Shown: positions 1,324-61,864, numbered from the stretch's first letter. The stretch is 64,000 nt of DNA from an uncultured archaeon (GCA_964486045.1 CAZALK010000003.1:128001-192000); one strand, 5' to 3'. The notes: generated by a model not told the origin, from the letters alone. Made by a program: numbers and translations.

Positions 1324-2115
1324 TCACTTTCCAATAAATTCTGGTTCCTTTTTATCAATAAGAGCAAATACTCCTCTTTTATAATCCTCAGTTTCAGCTG
1401 ATTTAACCTGCATTTGGCGCTCGTTTTCAAGATGTTCTTTCAAAGGGGTGCTCAGCGCGTCGAAGAATAGTTTTTTGGTTCTGGAGTAAGCCAATGTTGG
1501 CCCATTGGCAAGGCGTTGCGCCCATTGCAAAGTCACTTCATTAAGTTTTTCTGGAGGAGCGATTTCATTAACCAACCCAAGTTTAGCTAATTGCTCTGCG
1601 GAATATGTGTCTCCAAAAAACGACATTTCTGTAGCTTGTTGCCAAGTTAGTTGACGACTTAATAAAATTGTCCCTGCAAATCCTGGTATTAATCCAAGTT
1701 TCGCGAATGATTGTCTAAACCGAGCTTTTTCTGAGGCAATTATGAAATCACATGATAATGCTAGATTCATACCAGCTCCAACAGCCCATCCATTCACGGA
1801 AGCAATAACAGGTTTGGGATAGAGACGTAATATTAAAGCAATTTTATAAAGATTTTTTAATAAATCATCCATTACTTTACCTGATGTACCATCCTCTATA
1901 CTTAATTTAAACAATTTTATATCTCCACCAGCAGAAAATGCACGACCTGAGCCAGTGATTATTACGCATCTTACGTCATTATTTTTCTCAAGTGATTCTA
2001 ACGAATCTAGCAACTCTGTTGCTGTCTGTTTATTTAAAGGATTGAGATTTTCAGAATCCATTAGTTTTATCGTAGCTATTTTATTTTCGATTTTTAGATT
2101 TATTTTATTACCCAT
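1324..2115 (-). CDS. Enoyl-CoA hydratase/isomerase (crotonase family)
   Basis: AFSAGGDI, PKPVIASVNGWAVGAGMNLALSCD, C-terminal PEFIGK. Confidence 0.93.
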   Translation of the reverse strand: MGNKINLKIENKIATIKLMDSENLNPLNKQTATELLDSLESLEKNNDVRCVIITGSGRAFSAGGDIKLFKLSIEDGTSGKVMDDLLKNLYKIALILRLYPKPVIASVNGWAVGAGMNLALSCDFIIASEKARFRQSFAKLGLIPGFAGTILLSRQLTWQQATEMSFFGDTYSAEQLAKLGLVNEIAPPEKLNEVTLQWAQRLANGPTLAYSRTKKLFFDALSTPLKEHLENERQMQVKSAETEDYKRGVFALIDKKEPEFIGK

Positions 2116-6343: not shown

Positions 6344-6615
6344 CTTTATAATGAAGTTAAAGCTATTAGATAATGAGATATTATATACTAAACTTTTAGA
6401 CCATTTATAAATTTATACATAACCCTTGTTAGTGATAAACTCGTCTAATTTCACAAGTAGATAGAGTTCTAGTTAAAAAAAGTACTAAAATATTTTAGAT
6501 AGTTTGAAATCATTTCCTATCTGGAGCGCTAATTAAGTTCAATTTGATAAATAAGTTTAAAAACATTTCATCATACTCTTTCTACACAATAGTCAAAATA
6601 AATCAAGGATTGATT

Positions 6616-7596
6616 ATGCCAACTGAAAGAACTCTAAGTGATTACTTTGATACTACCGGTCGTGATGATATTTTAACTGGTGGAATTAAGATGATCTCCA
6701 TCCAGACTCCACTCGGTGAATTTAAAGTCTGGACCAAAAAGATTGGAAATAATCCTACAATCAAAGTACTTCTCTTACATGGAGGCCCTGGTGGAACTCA
6801 TGAATATTTTGAGTGTTTTGATAGCTTTTTTCCAGCAGAGGGGATTGAATACTATTACTATGACCAGTTGGGATCTTATTATAGTGACCAACCTACAGAA
6901 CCCGACTTATGGGAGATATCCAGATTTGTCGAGGAAGTAGAGCAGGTTAGAAAAGCTCTAAAATTAGATATATCAAACTTCTACTTATTGGGTCATTCGT
7001 GGGGTGGTATATTAGGAGTTGAGTATGCACTGAAATATCAGGATAATCTCAAGGGTTTAATTATCTCCAATATGATGATGAGCGCCCCTGCTTACGGGAA
7101 ATATGCTGATGAAGTCCTAGGACCTAAGCTTAAACCTAAAGTATTAGCTTAAATCAAGGAGTTGGAAGCTAAAGGAGATTTTGATAATCCTCGTTACATG
7201 GAGTTATTGTTGCCTAATTATTACGCTGAACATATTATTCGTATACAAGTTGACCAGTGGCCAGAACCCGTTAATCTATTTTTCAAACACCTAAATGAGG
7301 ATGTCTACAAGCTAATGTGGGGACCAAGTGAATTAAGTGCTCGTGGAACATTAAAAAATTGGGATAGAACCGTTAATTTATCAAAAATAAAAGTTCCTAC
7401 GTTAGTAATCGGAGCTACTCATGATACGATGGATCCCGAACATATGAAATGGATATCTACCCAAGTACAACAGGGACAATTTCTACTATGCCCAAATGGT
7501 AGTCATTGTGCCTTTTATGATGATCAGAAGATATACTTTGATGGGTTAATAAAATTCATCAAAGACGTAAATCAAGGAACATTTACTACCAAGTAA
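6616..7596 (+). pseudogene. pip: Proline iminopeptidase with one in-frame TAA at 7150-7152
   Basis: LLHGGPG, YDQLG and GHSWGG in the 5' part; catalytic Asp/His region in the 3' part. Both ORFs share a frame (VLA*IKELEA), consistent with GAA>TAA. Confidence 0.8.
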
Positions 7597-57399: not shown

Positions 57400-57885
57400 G
57401 TATACTTCCGTTGATTTGTTTATCTTATTTTATTTACTAAATCATAATTTTTAATCTTGATTTAAATTCGAGATTATTAAAAGAAGAGAATCCTCCAATT
57501 CCTACTGAAAAAGATATTTTTAAACCAAAAGTTCTGCTTTTTGAAAGATTATCGTTCCTTTTAAATAATTCTAAATATATTTCTGTAATAAATAATCAGT
57601 TTTCTATTCTTATTAAATTTGTAAAAGAAATTTTAAAACTTGTTGACTTAAAAGAAAAGATGATTTTAGAAAACCTCAGAAAGCATCTTAGAAATGAACT
57701 AAATATTAATTGGAGATCAGATAACATTAAAAAAATTCTAATCGCTTTAAAAGTTTATAAGAAACTAATATTTGAAATTTAATAACAAATTTTGATGTAA
57801 GAAAAAAGTTGTACACACGGTTAATAAAGTTTAATTTAAACTAAAGACATTATTGTACTAAAAGGAAAGATGTATTAATTTTATA

Positions 57886-57893
57886 AAGGAGGT
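57886..57893 (+). promoter_or_regulatory. Shine-Dalgarno site of the thiolase gene
   Basis: AAGGAGGT, 7 nt before ACG at 57901. Confidence 0.7.
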
Positions 57894-57900
57894 TGTTAAA

Positions 57901-59106
57901 ACGGTTACTCATGGTATTAAAGATAAAGTTGCAGTAATCGGCTGCGATGCCACTAAATTTGGTGAATTGTGGGATAAAAGCAAAGAAGATTTACTGTTTG
58001 AATCTACTCAAGGCGCTATTAAGGATGCAGGGATTAAAAAAGATGAAATTGATGCTGCATGGCTCGGAGTTTATTATTTTTTCACAGGTGTTTCTGGAAC
58101 CACATTGGAAGATTCATTAAGATTAGGTGGGAAGCCTATAACTAGAGTTGAAAATTATTGCGCAAGCGGAATGGAATCTATAATACTTCGTTATTGATAT
58201 TCAAACGCTTTCCGCAATGCTTGTTTTGGTGTGGCATCGGGAGCTTATGATGTGGCATTAGCTTGTGGTGTTGAAAAGCTAATGGATGAAGGTGGTAGAG
58301 GATTGCCTGGAACAACAGTAATGGGACATCCAGTATTACCACGACCTTCAGCACCAGCTATGTTTTGTTTATTAGCTACTCGTAGTTTTCATGAATTCGG
58401 TTGGAGAAAAGAAGATCTAGCTCGTGTAGCAGTTAAGAATCACGAAAATGGATTTTATCATCCAAAGGCTCATTTCAGAATGAAAATTACATTAGAACAA
58501 GCTATGAATGCCCCAATGATAGCAGATCCACTCGGACGATTTGATTGTTGCGCGATGAGTGATGGTTCTGCTGCATTAATCCTTACTCGACCTGAATTAG
58601 CAGAGTCTTATGCTCATGCTGACGATTATGTTCTTGTTAAATCAAACTCACTTTCAGTTCATTCGGCTTATCCATGGTATGATCCAAAGTTTGATTTTAT
58701 ATGTGCTCCAGCTACGATTGATGCAGCAAAAATGGCATATAAAGAAGCAAACATTACAAACCCAAGAAAAGAAATTGATTTAGCAGAAGTTCACGATTGT
58801 TTTACAATAACTGAGTTATTAAATTGCCAAGATCTACAACTATGTGATAGTGGGAAAGCTGCCGAAGAATTACAAAAAGGTACTTTTAATTGGGATGGTG
58901 AAACTGCGATAAATCCAAGTGGTGGCCTAAAATCTTTCGGGCATCCTATAGGGAGTACTGGTTGTAGGATGGTTCAAGAAGTTACTAAACAACTTCAAGG
59001 AAGAGCTGAGGGAAGACAAGTACCTGATGCAAAAACTGGATTAGCTCACAATCTTGGTGGGGCTTATGCTGTCTGTTCTGTGACTATTTTAGGGCAGAGA
59101 GATTAA
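57901..59106 (+). CDS. Thiolase (acetyl-CoA acetyltransferase, archaeal/SCP-x type); spliced join(57901..58174,58205..59106), 391 aa
   Basis: GIKDKVAVIG, TRVENYCASGM|DAFRNA after intron removal, GVEKL, KNH, AEVHDCF, GHPIGSTG, HNLGG. Confidence 0.88.
58175..58204 (+). other. 30-nt bulge-helix-bulge intron in the thiolase mRNA
   Basis: AAGCG-GAAT-[GG^A]-ATC...GAT-ATTC-[AA^A]-CGCTT; contains the in-frame TGA; removal gives ATG GAC GCT TTC (MDAF). Confidence 0.88.
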
Positions 59107-59294
59107 AGTTTATTAAACATTTTGGAAACCGAAAATAGAGTTTCTTTCTTTCTTTCTTATTTCTTTTTCACAATTTCAGAGGTAGAAAGAAGACAAATAC
59201 AAAGTGATAAAAAAAGAACTATAATTTCAGTTTGTTTAATGTTTTCGAAAATTTATTTAAAAAATTATTTAATGATCTATTAATTTTGATTACC

Positions 59295-60178
59295 ATGAAT
59301 GAATCATTTAATAAATTTCAAGGAGACGTAAAAACCGATAATTTAAAGTATCTTGCAGATCCCCAACTTAGAAATATTGTAAATGTGTCTATTGCTTTAG
59401 AACGTCCCTTACTAGTAAAGGGAGAACCCGGAACCGGAAAAACTATGCTAGCTCACGCAATATCGCAGAGTTTGAGTAAAAAACTACTAATTTGGAATGT
59501 TAAAAGCACTACTGAGGCTATTGACGGGTGCTATATGTATGATACAGTTCAACGTTTAAATGATAGTAGATTTGGTTCAGAAGACCGAGACGTAAACAAA
59601 ATTCACGATTACATTACATTTGGTCCCCTTGGAGAAGCATTTGACGCTAACGAACAAGTTGTTCTCCTTATCGATGAGATCGATAAAGCAGATATAATGT
59701 CTAATAATAATTAGCATTACTGCATATTGAGTTTCCGAACGACTTGCTACAAGAATTAGATGTAATGGAGTTCTATGTAAAAGAGACAAAAGAATTTGTA
59801 AAAACTAAAAAGCGGCCAATAGTGATAATTACTTCGAATAATGAAAAAGAACTTCCAGATGCCTTCTTAAGAAGGTGTGTATTTCACTGGATTGAATTCC
59901 CTTCTAGAGGATTTATGACAGAAATATGTAATCTCCATTACCCAAATCTTAAAACAAATTTATTAGATCAATGTCTTAAACACTTTTATGCATTGCGCGC
60001 GATTACAAAACTTAGAAAATTGCCTTCTACTTCCGAACTCCTAGATTGGATTGGAGTACTTTTAAAAAGTGGGATTAGTATTGACCAATTAAAAAAAGAA
60101 ATTCCTTTCTTAGGTGTTCTCATAAAGAAAGAAAAGGATCTCGAATTTGCATTAGAAAAACTTAAATTTCCTTCATGA
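59295..60178 (+). CDS. MoxR/CoxD-type AAA+ ATPase; spliced join(59295..59693,59726..60178), 283 aa
   Basis: GEPGTGKT, WNVKST, YDTVQRL, LLIDEIDKAD|IEFPNDLL after intron removal, TSNNEKELPDAFLRRC, PSTSELLDW. Confidence 0.9.
59694..59725 (+). other. 32-nt bulge-helix-bulge intron in the MoxR mRNA
   Basis: AA-GCAG-[AT^A]-TAATG-T-CTAAT-aata-ATTAG-CATTA-CTGC-[AT^A]-TT; causes an in-frame TAG and a frameshift; removal gives GCA GAT ATT GAG TTT CCG. Confidence 0.88.
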
Positions 60179-60238
60179 TCAATAAGTAGACTTAAAGAAA
60201 TCCATTTTTTTTTTGATTTTATTATTTTGATATTAATG

Positions 60239-60337
60239 TTATCTCCAATTTGGACATCCTTTTCCTCTGCGAATATTATCTGGAGTCGCATTCCATATTT
60301 TTCAGCAGTCATGATGATAAACATATGTTAATTCCAT
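60239..60337 (-). pseudogene. Decayed zinc-ribbon repeat fragment
   Basis: Own translation ...HHDC*KIWNATPDNIRRGKGCPNW, matching the C-G-x-x-W-x-A-x(3)-(I/R)-x-RG-x-GCP-x-C ribbon pattern with two lesions. Confidence 0.5.
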
Positions 60338-60424: not shown

Positions 60425-61864
60425 TTAAAACCTCCCCCTAACTGGTCTACATTTCCAATAATAATTTTTAAATTCACCACCTTCATGCAGCCTTCGAAAT
60501 GTTAATTCAACTTCCGTTCCAATACGGACATTTTCTTCAGGGTTTTCGATTTCGGTCATATTTAACATAACTCGACCGCCACCATCCAAATCAATTACGC
60601 ATCTGGGAACTGGAGTATCATTATAAGCACCCCCTACTAAATGATCAAGAGAATATGTATAAATTTTACCTTTTAAAGCTAGTTTAATCAGTTCCAATTG
60701 GTCATCAGCCCTACATACGATACAAGAACGTGCTGTAGTGGGATACTGAATACTTCCACAGTTTTTACATTTAAGGCCATACATTTTATACACAGCAGGT
60801 GTATCTCGCCATAATGTTACAGCAGAACTTTTTCTTACATATCGGTCTTTTTCAAGAAGTTTTTTATTTTCAACGTAAACATTATAGTTTTTAAGAAGTT
60901 TCATTGATTGTTGATGTCCTGATAAGGCCATATGAGCTTGAGAAAGTTCTTTTAGAGCGTTTATATCATGAACGTGCAATAAAATCCCATCAGCACCATC
61001 ACCAAATCCAACTAACAATGCCTTTGCATTTTTTTTGGGATTTTTTAAGGCAGAGATTAATAATATAAAGGACATTGGAGTTCCGAGATCTCCAAATTGA
61101 AAGAAAAGTCCATTTTGAGCTACTCCCTGATTAAATTTCATCGCCTTTGAAACACGTCCATGTGTTCTAGGATTATTATAATAATATGCTGCGATATCAA
61201 TATCCTCAGGACTTAAGTCATTTCTTTCGATAATCTCAGACATTACTTTTGTAACACTTTGGGTATAAAATTGAGTATCCATTTTCGACTCAAAAGTTCT
61301 TATGAAGCTATCCTCCTTTGTTCTTTTCCACGGCCCTGTTACATTAGCCGAAATAGAATAATAGTCATCTATAACAAGTGGTAAATTTTCCCCTTCACTT
61401 AGGAGAAAAGCTGCAGCACCATCACCAAACGTAAATTCCCAAGTAGTAGCTGGCTCTGCTTCTCTCATATCTGAAGCAATAACAAGTATCTTTGAGACAT
61501 CCTTATTTGCTGTAATTGTGTCAACTGCTCTTGCTAACGCGGTTGTTCCTGCTTTTAGTGAGTCAGTGAAGTCTGCTGTTACAATATCTTCCCTTAAATC
61601 TAATACTGTTGCAATAAACGAGGAGGAATCCTTTTCAGTATACACTTGAGTAGTAGAGGCAAAAAATAAACCGTCAATACTTTTTGGATCAATTCCACTA
61701 AGACAATCTATACCAGCTTCAATAGCCATGGTAAGACTATCCTCATCTGCACTTGCAACAGCCTTGTTACCAGGAACAACAGGAAAATCCCAAGCTTTAG
61801 CGATCAACTCGCGAGGCATTACATACTTTGGTAAGTAAACACCATAAGATTTAATTCCAATCAT
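60425..61864 (-). CDS. HMG-CoA-synthase-like (thiolase fold) protein fused to a DUF35 Zn-ribbon/OB-fold domain
   Basis: IGIKSYGVYLP, DEDSLTMA, GDGAAA; CKNCG...CIVC; EVELTFRR...NYYWKCRP. Confidence 0.88.
   Translation of the reverse strand: MIGIKSYGVYLPKYVMPRELIAKAWDFPVVPGNKAVASADEDSLTMAIEAGIDCLSGIDPKSIDGLFFASTTQVYTEKDSSSFIATVLDLREDIVTADFTDSLKAGTTALARAVDTITANKDVSKILVIASDMREAEPATTWEFTFGDGAAAFLLSEGENLPLVIDDYYSISANVTGPWKRTKEDSFIRTFESKMDTQFYTQSVTKVMSEIIERNDLSPEDIDIAAYYYNNPRTHGRVSKAMKFNQGVAQNGLFFQFGDLGTPMSFILLISALKNPKKNAKALLVGFGDGADGILLHVHDINALKELSQAHMALSGHQQSMKLLKNYNVYVENKKLLEKDRYVRKSSAVTLWRDTPAVYKMYGLKCKNCGSIQYPTTARSCIVCRADDQLELIKLALKGKIYTYSLDHLVGGAYNDTPVPRCVIDLDGGGRVMLNMTEIENPEENVRIGTEVELTFRRLHEGGEFKNYYWKCRPVRGRF

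What the first reader, a model, noticed from the sequence alone, without database searches (positions are those of the whole stretch)
58164..59731. Candidate tRNA-type (BHB) micro-intron system in ordinary mRNAs of an Asgard-like archaeon
Seen: two neighbouring, unrelated genes 1.5 kb apart each carry a 30-32 nt AT-rich hairpin. Both have BHB geometry (4-bp central helix, two 3-nt bulges), both contain an in-frame stop, and both sit just after a catalytic motif. In both, cutting after the second nucleotide of each bulge restores the protein consensus. The intron strand of the central helix differs (ATTC vs CTGC) and complements its own exon, so the geometry is matched to each site. The introns share a short TCTA(A)TAATA core. 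Established: archaeal EndA cleaves BHB motifs and RtcB ligates; the mRNA example I know best is the crenarchaeal cbf5 intron. Inference: two cases in 64 kb suggest many genome-wide, mis-annotated as pseudogenes or frameshifts, and splicing could gate expression. In an Asgard lineage this may relate to eukaryotic non-spliceosomal mRNA splicing (IRE1-XBP1/HAC1). I cannot verify novelty without a literature search.
Basis: partly seen in the sequence, partly recalled or inferred. Interest (0 to 1): 0.96.

Follow-up and report, generated by a model that had tools for sequence, protein, structure and literature searches.

The report
tRNA-type mini-introns in Asgard protein genes
Two neighbouring protein genes of a Loki-type (Asgard) archaeon are each interrupted by a 30-32 base insert shaped like a tRNA intron; related organisms keep these inserts while the genes stay under strong selection, so the messenger RNAs are very probably cut and rejoined by the tRNA-splicing enzymes, which papers report for only one archaeal coding sequence.

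Summary
A 30-nt insert (58175-58204) interrupts a thiolase gene, and a 32-nt insert (59694-59725) interrupts a MoxR/MadB-type AAA ATPase gene. Each has a 4-bp exon-intron helix flanked by two 3-nt bulges. Cutting after the second bulge base gives exactly the sequence found in about 30 intron-less orthologues of each gene.

The inserts are not artefacts or pseudogene scars:
- They occur in independent assemblies from several projects.
- Once the insert is removed, the host genes are full length, with pN/pS of 0.04-0.1 although synonymous sites are 40-73% changed.
- The introns change far less than the synonymous sites.
- A second genus carries an unrelated hairpin at the same ATPase site, with a compensating exon-intron base-pair change.

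The genome encodes a two-subunit EndA with the broad-specificity loop, and RtcB. Motif-free comparisons found at least 11 more such inserts, including uL11 and a translational GTPase.

No RNA data were available, so splicing is inferred. The shared "core" of the two introns is chance, and any IRE1/XBP1 link is only an analogy. G000's thiolase copy has ACG where relatives have the ATG start.

This scan has already reported the phenomenon in over 20 other Asgard genomes. I found no paper describing it.

The parts
57901..58174 (+). Thiolase (acetyl-CoA acetyltransferase-like) exon 1. It ends after the first base of the Asp codon that follows the active-site motif NYCASGM. The start position 57901-57903 reads ACG where relatives have ATG.
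   Evidence: Translation. NCBIfam NF004810 and Pfam Thiolase_N/C. Start-codon comparison.
58175..58204 (+). Intron 1: 30 nt, 20% G+C, in-frame TGA at 58195-58197. Canonical hBHBh' motif with central helix 58169-72/58199-202, bulges 58173-75 and 58203-05, and outer helix 58164-68/58206-10.
   Evidence: Fold. Descriptor. Absent from 159 of 161 genomes of the class. Present in G022 and in 7 metagenome contigs.
58205..59106 (+). Thiolase exon 2, ending at stop codon 59104-59106.
   Evidence: The spliced frame is 390-404 aa and is intact in all intron-bearing relatives.
59295..59693 (+). AAA ATPase (MoxR/MadB-like) exon 1, ending after Walker B ...LLIDEIDKAD.
   Evidence: Pfam AAA/AAA_5 and NCBIfam MadB_ATPase profile positions 13-66.
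59694..59725 (+). Intron 2: 32 nt, 22% G+C. It shifts the frame and brings TAG at 59712-14 into frame. Central helix 59688-91/59720-23, bulges 59692-94 and 59724-26, inner stem 59695-59719. The outer helix is weak, so the motif is relaxed.
   Evidence: Fold. Descriptor. Same-site introns in G102, G020, G157 and G158 with covariation. A strain SNP at 59701 changes a C-G pair to U-G.
59726..60178 (+). AAA ATPase exon 2, starting IEFPNDLLQELD... and ending at the stop codon.
   Evidence: NCBIfam MadB_ATPase profile positions 171-297. Orthologue junctions.

Best explanation
Both inserts are archaeal bulge-helix-bulge (BHB) introns in pre-mRNA.

Proposed mechanism:
1. After transcription, four bases of the 5' exon pair with four bases at the 3' end of the intron.
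2. This 4-bp helix is flanked by two 3-nt bulges, and an AT-rich intron hairpin stacks on it.
3. The two-subunit splicing endonuclease EndA (alpha2 beta2) cuts after the second base of each bulge.
4. RtcB joins the exons and probably circularises the 30- or 32-nt intron.
5. Only the spliced mRNA encodes the full thiolase (...CASGM-DAFRNA...) and the full AAA ATPase (...DEIDKAD-IEFPNDLL...).

These two introns belong to a genome-wide population of about 27-33-nt introns in protein genes of this Loki-type Asgard lineage. Members of that population are gained, precisely lost and possibly moved by short-patch recombination.

Shown here: the inserts and their geometry, exact restoration of the orthologue sequence, persistence under purifying selection, covariation, and presence of the enzyme genes.

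Inferred: the cleavage and ligation themselves, and which enzymes carry them out.
For: 1. Geometry. Both inserts have the central helix and 3-nt bulges in the register that restores the frame. In this genome the strict motif occurs at about 1e-4 per position and length. The relaxed motif occurs at about 7e-4.

2. Exact junctions. All sampled intron-less orthologues read CASGMDAFRNA (30 loci) or DEIDKADIEFPNDLL (29 loci). A metagenome contig of a relative skips exactly 32 nt at intron 2. Another relative reads CASGMDAF across the intron 1 site.

3. Not an artefact. Both inserts are in two DNA assemblies of one study and in diverged contigs of other studies. Intron 1 is in 7 metagenome contigs from at least 3 projects and in genome G022. 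Intron 2 is in G102 and G020.

4. Genes alive.
- Spliced frames are full length wherever the contig covers them. One exception is G158, which carries two further inserts upstream.
- Thiolase: pN/pS is 0.04-0.056 with pS 0.38-0.45 among intron-bearing copies, while the intron differs at 0-2 of 30 bases.
- ATPase: pN is about 0.08 and pS about 0.73.

5. Covariation.
- Genus g29 has a 31-nt intron at the same ATPase site with an unrelated 9-bp hairpin.
- In g29 the exon reads GCCG and the intron CGGA, which turns an A-U pair into C-G.
- 93.8% of cells are paired, against 18-54% when the 3' partner is slid. Seven pairs change on both sides.
- The changes in thiolase contig L215 (A-U to G-U, U-G to C-G) keep pairing.

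6. Machinery.
- There are two EndA paralogues of about 200 aa. One has the catalytic Tyr, His and Lys; the other lacks the His (read by eye from the ORFs; family hits).
- The catalytic subunit matches best the chains 3p1z_B and 3ajv_B (by my recollection the catalytic subunit of Aeropyrum pernix EndA), across the specific-loop region GxPL..KPR.
- RtcB is present.
- PMC5829648 reports this broad-specificity EndA type for Asgard archaea.

7. System level. Eleven other motif-free inserts were found, including uL11 and a translational GTPase. Taking all 13 inserts (the two focal ones included), 10 fit the descriptor against 15% of random loci (P = 1.3e-6), and in each of those 10 the cut gives the homologue's protein.
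Against: - No RNA run holding this DNA could be listed, so no spliced read, circular intron or cleavage assay supports the model directly.
- The outer helix of intron 2 is weak, and the minimum-energy fold pairs two of its 3' bulge bases.
- One natural variant of intron 1 (L216, G22A) breaks a pair.
- Covariation for intron 2 rests on essentially two independent lineages.
- In G000 itself the thiolase start codon is ACG where relatives, including intron-bearing ones, have ATG. This particular copy may be poorly translated or beginning to decay.
- A descriptor-first scan of the genome shows no excess over frame-shifted controls. The motif alone is therefore not diagnostic in this 31% G+C genome.
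Confidence: 0.88

Rival explanations
1. Translational recoding. The ribosome bypasses the hairpin, as in phage T4 gene 60, or reads through or frameshifts, so the RNA is never cut.
For: Both inserts are compact hairpins with a stop codon near the take-off point. Conservation of the hairpin would also be expected of a bypass signal.
Against: - In intron 1 the Asp codon is built from a G of exon 1 and AC of exon 2. No bypass landing site can give Asp, because the 3' side reads AAC GCT.
- I saw no matched take-off and landing codons when reading the sequence.
- The exon-intron 4-bp helix covaries, and the 3-nt bulges are kept in unrelated introns. This is what EndA needs, not what a ribosome needs.
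- 13 inserts of 27-33 nt in unrelated genes all obey the same cut rule.
Confidence: 0.04
2. Cleavage without productive ligation. The BHB is a regulatory or destabilising site where EndA cuts the mRNA to lower expression, or the genes are expressed as split halves.
For: EndA substrates outside tRNA are known, for example the 5' UTR of HVO_1309 (PMC7714728). The thiolase copy in G000 lacks an ATG start.
Against: - Excision restores the reading frame and the orthologue sequence to the base in every case. A mere cleavage site would not need this.
- Exon 2 of each gene has no start codon or ribosome-binding site of its own at the junction.
- Both halves are held under purifying selection as one protein.
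- Essential single-domain proteins such as uL11 are also hit.
Confidence: 0.04
3. Pseudogenes. The inserts are random insertions that killed two dispensable genes.
For: Most relatives lack the inserts. G000's thiolase has ACG at the start position. The same window holds a true nonsense mutation in another gene.
Against: - pN/pS is 0.04-0.1 between insert-bearing copies whose synonymous sites are 40-73% changed.
- There are no further disruptions in any copy.
- The BHB geometry sits in the exact register, at a chance level of about 1e-4 to 7e-4 per site.
- The inserts are far more conserved than synonymous sites.
Confidence: 0.03
4. Assembly or sequencing artefact.
For: The genome is a metagenome-assembled genome with 7.8% estimated contamination.
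Against: - The same inserts are found at 260x and 69x depth in two samples.
- They are found in diverged contigs of other studies, in four other species genomes and in 7 metagenome contigs of at least 3 projects.
Confidence: 0.01

Closest known systems
cbf5 pre-mRNA intron of Crenarchaeota (Watanabe 2002; Yoshinari 2006; Yokobori 2009, PMC2738675)
   Same: A BHB intron inside a protein-coding sequence. It is removed by a hetero-oligomeric splicing endonuclease with broad specificity, and it is gained and lost among related species.
   Different: - cbf5 is one gene with one intron per genome. Here at least 13 genes in one genome carry introns, none of them cbf5 in my sample.
- The lineage is Asgard (Promethearchaeota), not Crenarchaeota.
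- The introns are uniformly tiny (27-33 nt).
- Splicing is shown by experiment for cbf5 and is only inferred here.
BHB intron in the 5' UTR of Haloferax volcanii HVO_1309 (PMC7714728)
   Same: An mRNA substrate of the tRNA splicing endonuclease.
   Different: That intron lies in the untranslated leader, so the reading frame does not depend on it. It is also a single case, in a euryarchaeon with a homodimeric EndA.
[quoted passage not shown]
   Same: - Same motif, same cut rule and same enzymes.
- Same arrangement: the exon strand of the central helix is 5' and the intron strand is 3', as at tRNA position 37/38.
- Repeated gains with no known route of arrival.
- ARAGORN finds only 31 tRNA genes in this genome, 20 of them with intron calls.
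   Different: The host RNA is an mRNA and there is no tRNA body to help recognition. The preprint does not contain the term mRNA and does not discuss introns in protein genes.
Unconventional cytoplasmic splicing of HAC1/XBP1 mRNA in eukaryotes (IRE1 plus tRNA ligase; from established knowledge)
   Same: Protein-only, non-spliceosomal removal of a short intron from an mRNA at paired stem-loops. RtcB is the ligase in animals. The frame changes on splicing.
   Different: The nuclease is IRE1, not a Sen/EndA-family enzyme, and the recognised structure differs. It acts on one regulated substrate rather than many housekeeping genes. No homology between the two systems is implied by my data.

Membership tests
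Archaeal BHB intron (EndA/RtcB-spliced) | 4-bp central helix flanked by two 3-nt bulges on opposite strands | tested here: met
   Intron 1 has GAAU/AUUC with bulges GGA and AAA. Intron 2 has GCAG/CUGC with bulges AUA and AUA.
Archaeal BHB intron (EndA/RtcB-spliced) | Flanking outer and inner helices (strict hBHBh') | tested here: inconclusive
   Intron 1 meets it, with an outer helix of 5 bp and an inner stem of 8 pairs. Intron 2 has an inner stem of 10 pairs but an outer helix of only 2 A-U pairs. That is a relaxed form, which published work says only the two-subunit and epsilon2 EndA types cut (PMC5829648).
Archaeal BHB intron (EndA/RtcB-spliced) | Cuts after the second base of each bulge give a precise, functional exon junction | tested here: met
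   The predicted junctions equal the sequence of 30 and 29 intron-less orthologues and of intron-less metagenome relatives.
Archaeal BHB intron (EndA/RtcB-spliced) | Helices maintained by compensatory change | tested here: met
   Intron 2 site: 7 pairs change on both sides, including one exon-intron pair, and 93.8% of cells are paired against 18-54% when slid. These are only about two independent lineages. Intron 1: two pair-preserving changes and one pair-breaking change.
Archaeal BHB intron (EndA/RtcB-spliced) | Splicing endonuclease and RNA ligase encoded in the genome | tested here: met
   EndA alpha and beta. The alpha subunit aligns through the specific-loop region of chains 3p1z_B/3ajv_B. 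RtcB scores 557 bits.
Archaeal BHB intron (EndA/RtcB-spliced) | Excision seen in RNA (spliced mRNA, circular intron) or in vitro | not testable with these tools
   No RNA run was listed.
Self-splicing group I/II introns or other curated RNA families | Match to a ribozyme or other Rfam model | tested here: not met
   Rfam scan of 57800-60300 at E<=1 gave only one chance-level hit elsewhere in the thiolase gene. 30-32 nt is far too short for a ribozyme intron.
Translational bypass (T4 gene 60 type) | Matched take-off and landing codons that give the orthologue protein | tested here: not met
   Reading the sequence: the Asp codon of the thiolase junction is split between the exons, and I saw no matching landing codon.

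The most novel reading that the evidence does not exclude
Loki-type Asgard archaea run a general, protein-only mRNA splicing layer. Dozens of protein genes per genome, essential ones included, depend on EndA and RtcB. The micro-introns form a dynamic population that is gained, precisely lost and moved between diverged homologous genes by short recombination patches that carry the intron and its flanking exon bases. Splicing efficiency could therefore tune expression in the closest prokaryotic relatives of eukaryotes.
Probability: 0.3. Interest if true: 0.92.

Novelty: new variant of a known kind. Interest (0 to 1): 0.85.

Why it matters
In the papers I could search, endonuclease-spliced introns inside archaeal coding sequences are limited to one gene (cbf5), plus one 5'-UTR case. 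Here one Asgard genome carries at least 13, and they break thiolase, AAA ATPase, small GTPase, uL11 and translational-GTPase genes.

Consequences if splicing is confirmed:
- Gene callers mis-annotate these genes as pseudogenes, frameshifts or split genes. This distorts the metabolic and eukaryote-signature inventories of Asgard genomes.
- Expression of housekeeping genes would depend on the tRNA-splicing machinery.
- The patchy, recently changing distribution gives a tractable system for asking how introns arrive and leave in the prokaryotic lineage nearest to eukaryotes.

Tried and rejected
- RNA evidence. No RNA holder was listed for the 2.3-kb stretch or for a 1.7-kb stretch covering both junctions, so expression and splicing could not be examined.
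- Descriptor-first census. A strict hBHBh' scan gave 115,048 hits and a relaxed scan 303,012. I combined each with a test that excision joins two long open frames. Neither showed an excess over controls with the acceptor shifted by 1-2 nt. In this 31% G+C genome the motif alone has no discriminating power, so I switched to motif-free homologue comparison.
- Intron repeat family. blastn-short of both introns against the genome found only chance 11-16-mers, so the 'shared core' was rejected.
- A third 'intron' in the window. Position 7124-7153 fits the descriptor and joins two open frames. Alignment to relatives shows no insertion, only TAA where they have a Glu codon. It was rejected as an intron; it is a nonsense codon.
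- Taxonomy by the search for related loci in genome contigs. This returned mostly bacterial homologues and one Promethearchaeum MAG, which was of little use. The Atlas neighbours of EndA pointed to Promethearchaeota.
- Paralogue-based frameshift detection missed the ATPase intron, because the halves are short and the paralogues distant.

Full report
**What is there.** The window is G000:C3:128001-192000. G000 is a 5.18-Mb, 31% G+C metagenome-assembled genome from marine sediment.

- A thiolase gene runs from about 57901 to 59106 (NCBIfam acetyl-CoA acetyltransferase NF004810; Pfam Thiolase_N/C). Its frame is broken by 30 extra bases at 58175-58204 that contain an in-frame TGA.
- About 1.5 kb downstream lies an AAA ATPase gene. 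Its two halves match positions 13-66 and 171-297 of the MadB/MoxR-type profile. It is broken by 32 bases at 59694-59725, which shift the frame and bring in a TAG.
- The inserts follow the catalytic-cysteine motif NYCASGM and the Walker B motif LLIDEIDKAD.

**Geometry.** Intron 1 is a textbook hBHBh' motif.
- The outer helix is AAGCG/CGCUU.
- The central helix is GAAU (exon) paired with AUUC (intron 3' end).
- The bulges are GGA and AAA, and the inner stem has 8 pairs.

Intron 2 has the following features.
- The central helix is GCAG/CUGC, the bulges are AUA and AUA, and the inner stem has 10 pairs.
- The outer helix has only two A-U pairs, so the motif is relaxed.

Folds are more stable than shuffles (z = -2.5 and -2.7). 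In this genome the strict motif occurs at about 1e-4 per position and length, and the relaxed one at about 7e-4.

**Exact restoration.** Cutting after the second base of each bulge gives ...CASGM-DAFRNA... and ...DEIDKAD-IEFPNDLL....
- All sampled intron-less orthologues in 60 related genomes read exactly so, at the protein level and almost base for base.
- A pattern search over 161 genomes of the class found the thiolase insert only in G000 and G022.
- The same search found an insert at the ATPase site only in G000, G102, G020, G157 and G158.
- Logan contigs of the source study hold both inserts at depths of 260 and 69.
- A low-depth relative in the same sample skips exactly 32 nt.
- A relative in another study reads CASGMDAF without the insert.
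- Other diverged contigs (87-92% identity) keep the inserts without gaps.

**Not pseudogenes.** A metagenome scan found intron 1 in seven contigs of at least three projects, including the LAZR01 marine-sediment assembly.
- After removal of the 30 nt, the frames are full length (399-417 aa) wherever the contig allows.
- Among intron-bearing copies of the G000 type, pN is about 0.02 and pS 0.38-0.45 (pN/pS 0.04-0.056). The intron differs at 0-2 of 30 positions.
- Contig L215 changes A-U to G-U and U-G to C-G, which keeps both pairs. L216 has one loop change and one pair-breaking change.
- For the ATPase, spliced frames are intact and pN is about 0.08 against pS of about 0.73.
- A strain SNP at 59701 turns a C-G pair into U-G.

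**Covariation.** In genus g29 (G157, G158) the ATPase site holds a 31-nt intron.
- Its 9-bp hairpin is unrelated in sequence to ours.
- The register is the same.
- The exon helix strand is GCCG instead of GCAG, and the intron strand changes from CUGC to CGGA, so A-U becomes C-G. The outermost pair becomes G.A.
- On the five-sequence alignment, 93.8% of cells pair, against 18-54% when the 3' partner is slid by 1-3 columns. Seven of 13 pairs change on both sides.
- These are effectively two independent lineages, so the count is illustrative rather than a statistical test.
- G158 carries two further inserts in the same gene, one inside the P-loop codons.

**Machinery.**
- The genome encodes two EndA paralogues of about 200 aa. 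By eye, one has the catalytic Tyr/His/Lys and the other lacks the His.
- The catalytic subunit matches best the solved chains 3p1z_B and 3ajv_B. By my recollection these are the catalytic subunit of the heterotetrameric Aeropyrum pernix enzyme. The alignment runs through the loop region G.PL..KPR.
- PMC5829648 reports that Asgard archaea have this two-subunit type with the L1 loop that confers broad substrate range.
- RtcB is present.
- The nearest Atlas cluster of EndA alpha is from Promethearchaeota.

**Genome-wide.** Starting from the motif gave nothing. Strict and relaxed descriptors, each combined with an open-frame-joining test, showed no excess over shifted controls. Starting from homology did work.
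- tblastn of all G000 frames against the genome shows inserts of exactly 9-11 codons with stops at conserved motifs of paralogous families. One example is a small GTPase supported by 55 paralogues.
- 721 frames from 800 kb of genome G006 (same genus) reveal four G000-only inserts.
- 150 frames from 400 kb of G050 (another family) reveal three more, including a 28-nt insert in uL11. Two of these three had already appeared in the paralogue screen.
- Of the 13 motif-free inserts (the two focal ones included), 10 fit an automatic descriptor, against 15% of random loci (P = 1.3e-6).
- That descriptor requires the exon strand on the 5' side, three inner pairs of the central helix, 3-nt bulges and an inner stem of at least 5 pairs.
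- In all 10 the cut gives the homologue's protein.
- The other three fit by hand with one mismatch or an internal loop.
- Lengths are 27-33 nt, and all have the tRNA-like orientation.
- The 2% hit rate among conserved frames suggests some tens to about a hundred such introns in the genome. That figure is an extrapolation.

**Dynamics.**
- On a tree of the ATPase gene the intron-bearing copies are not one clade, and at least four changes are needed. This fits an old intron with repeated precise loss, or transfer.
- The thiolase intron sits in two gene lineages that are only 74% identical in DNA.
- Yet an 86-nt patch around the intron is nearly identical in both.
- The patch is chimeric: its 5' flank looks like one lineage and its 3' flank like the other.
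- This suggests movement of the intron with its flanking exon bases by recombination. Selection on the outer helix, or an assembly chimera in G022, are alternatives.

**Caveats.**
- No RNA data could be found, so splicing is inferred.
- In G000 the thiolase start position reads ACG where relatives, including intron-bearing ones, have ATG.
- A descriptor hit at 7124-7153 that seemed to be a third intron turned out to be a plain nonsense codon. This shows that the motif needs homologue support.

**Literature.**
- Searches of the held library found BHB introns in mRNA only for crenarchaeal cbf5 (PMC2738675) and the 5' UTR of HVO_1309. The authors of the latter paper state that cbf5 was the only other case (PMC7714728).
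- A 2026 preprint on Asgard tRNA introns does not contain the term mRNA and does not discuss protein-gene introns.
- No paper describing such introns in Asgard protein genes was found. Subscription journals are not covered.
- This scan has reported the same phenomenon in more than 20 other Asgard genomes and at many other places in this genome. I re-derived three of the latter independently.

Noticed in passing
window 7150-7152 (gene 6544-7596, + strand): An alpha/beta-hydrolase (proline-iminopeptidase-like) gene carries an in-frame TAA where three relatives have a Glu codon, with no length difference. This is a nonsense mutation or a recoded stop, not an intron, although the site fits the relaxed BHB descriptor.
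   Followed up: yes
window 57901-57903: The thiolase start codon is ACG in G000, while relatives (G028, G019 and contigs L211, L215) have ATG at the same place. This could be a non-canonical start or early decay of this copy.
   Followed up: partly
L068 (G158:C10), about 450 nt upstream of the intron at locus positions 1501-1560, minus strand: The same AAA ATPase gene in genus g29 has two further inserts. One of about 31 nt lies inside the P-loop codons (GEPG^TGKT, helix CUGG/CCAG). The other is an in-frame 30-nt insert with TAA (DTIKRL^NDSRFG). That makes three inserts in one gene.
   Followed up: partly
window 58147-58232 versus L024 (G022:C193, minus strand): An 86-nt patch containing intron 1 is nearly identical between two thiolase lineages that are otherwise 74% identical. 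The patch is chimeric: its 5' flank resembles one lineage and its 3' flank the other. This suggests that the intron moved by short-patch recombination.
   Followed up: partly
G000 whole genome: ARAGORN finds only 31 tRNA genes in a 99%-complete genome, and 20 of them have intron calls, several implausible. The tRNA genes are probably heavily and non-canonically interrupted.
   Followed up: no
window 60425-61864 (- strand): A 479-aa ORF next to the thiolase combines a KAS-III/HMG-CoA-synthase-like part with a C-terminal DUF35-type OB fold (Pfam OB_ChsH2_C). It looks like a fused partner of the archaeal thiolase/HMGCS/DUF35 complex.
   Followed up: partly
G000 C1:328142-334275: Large paralogous genes in this region show bigger stop-containing extra segments (49-155 nt) relative to their paralogues. 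I did not resolve these.
   Followed up: no
G000 contigs C40 and C45: Two short contigs have 58-59% G+C in a 31% G+C genome. They could be rRNA fragments or contamination.
   Followed up: no
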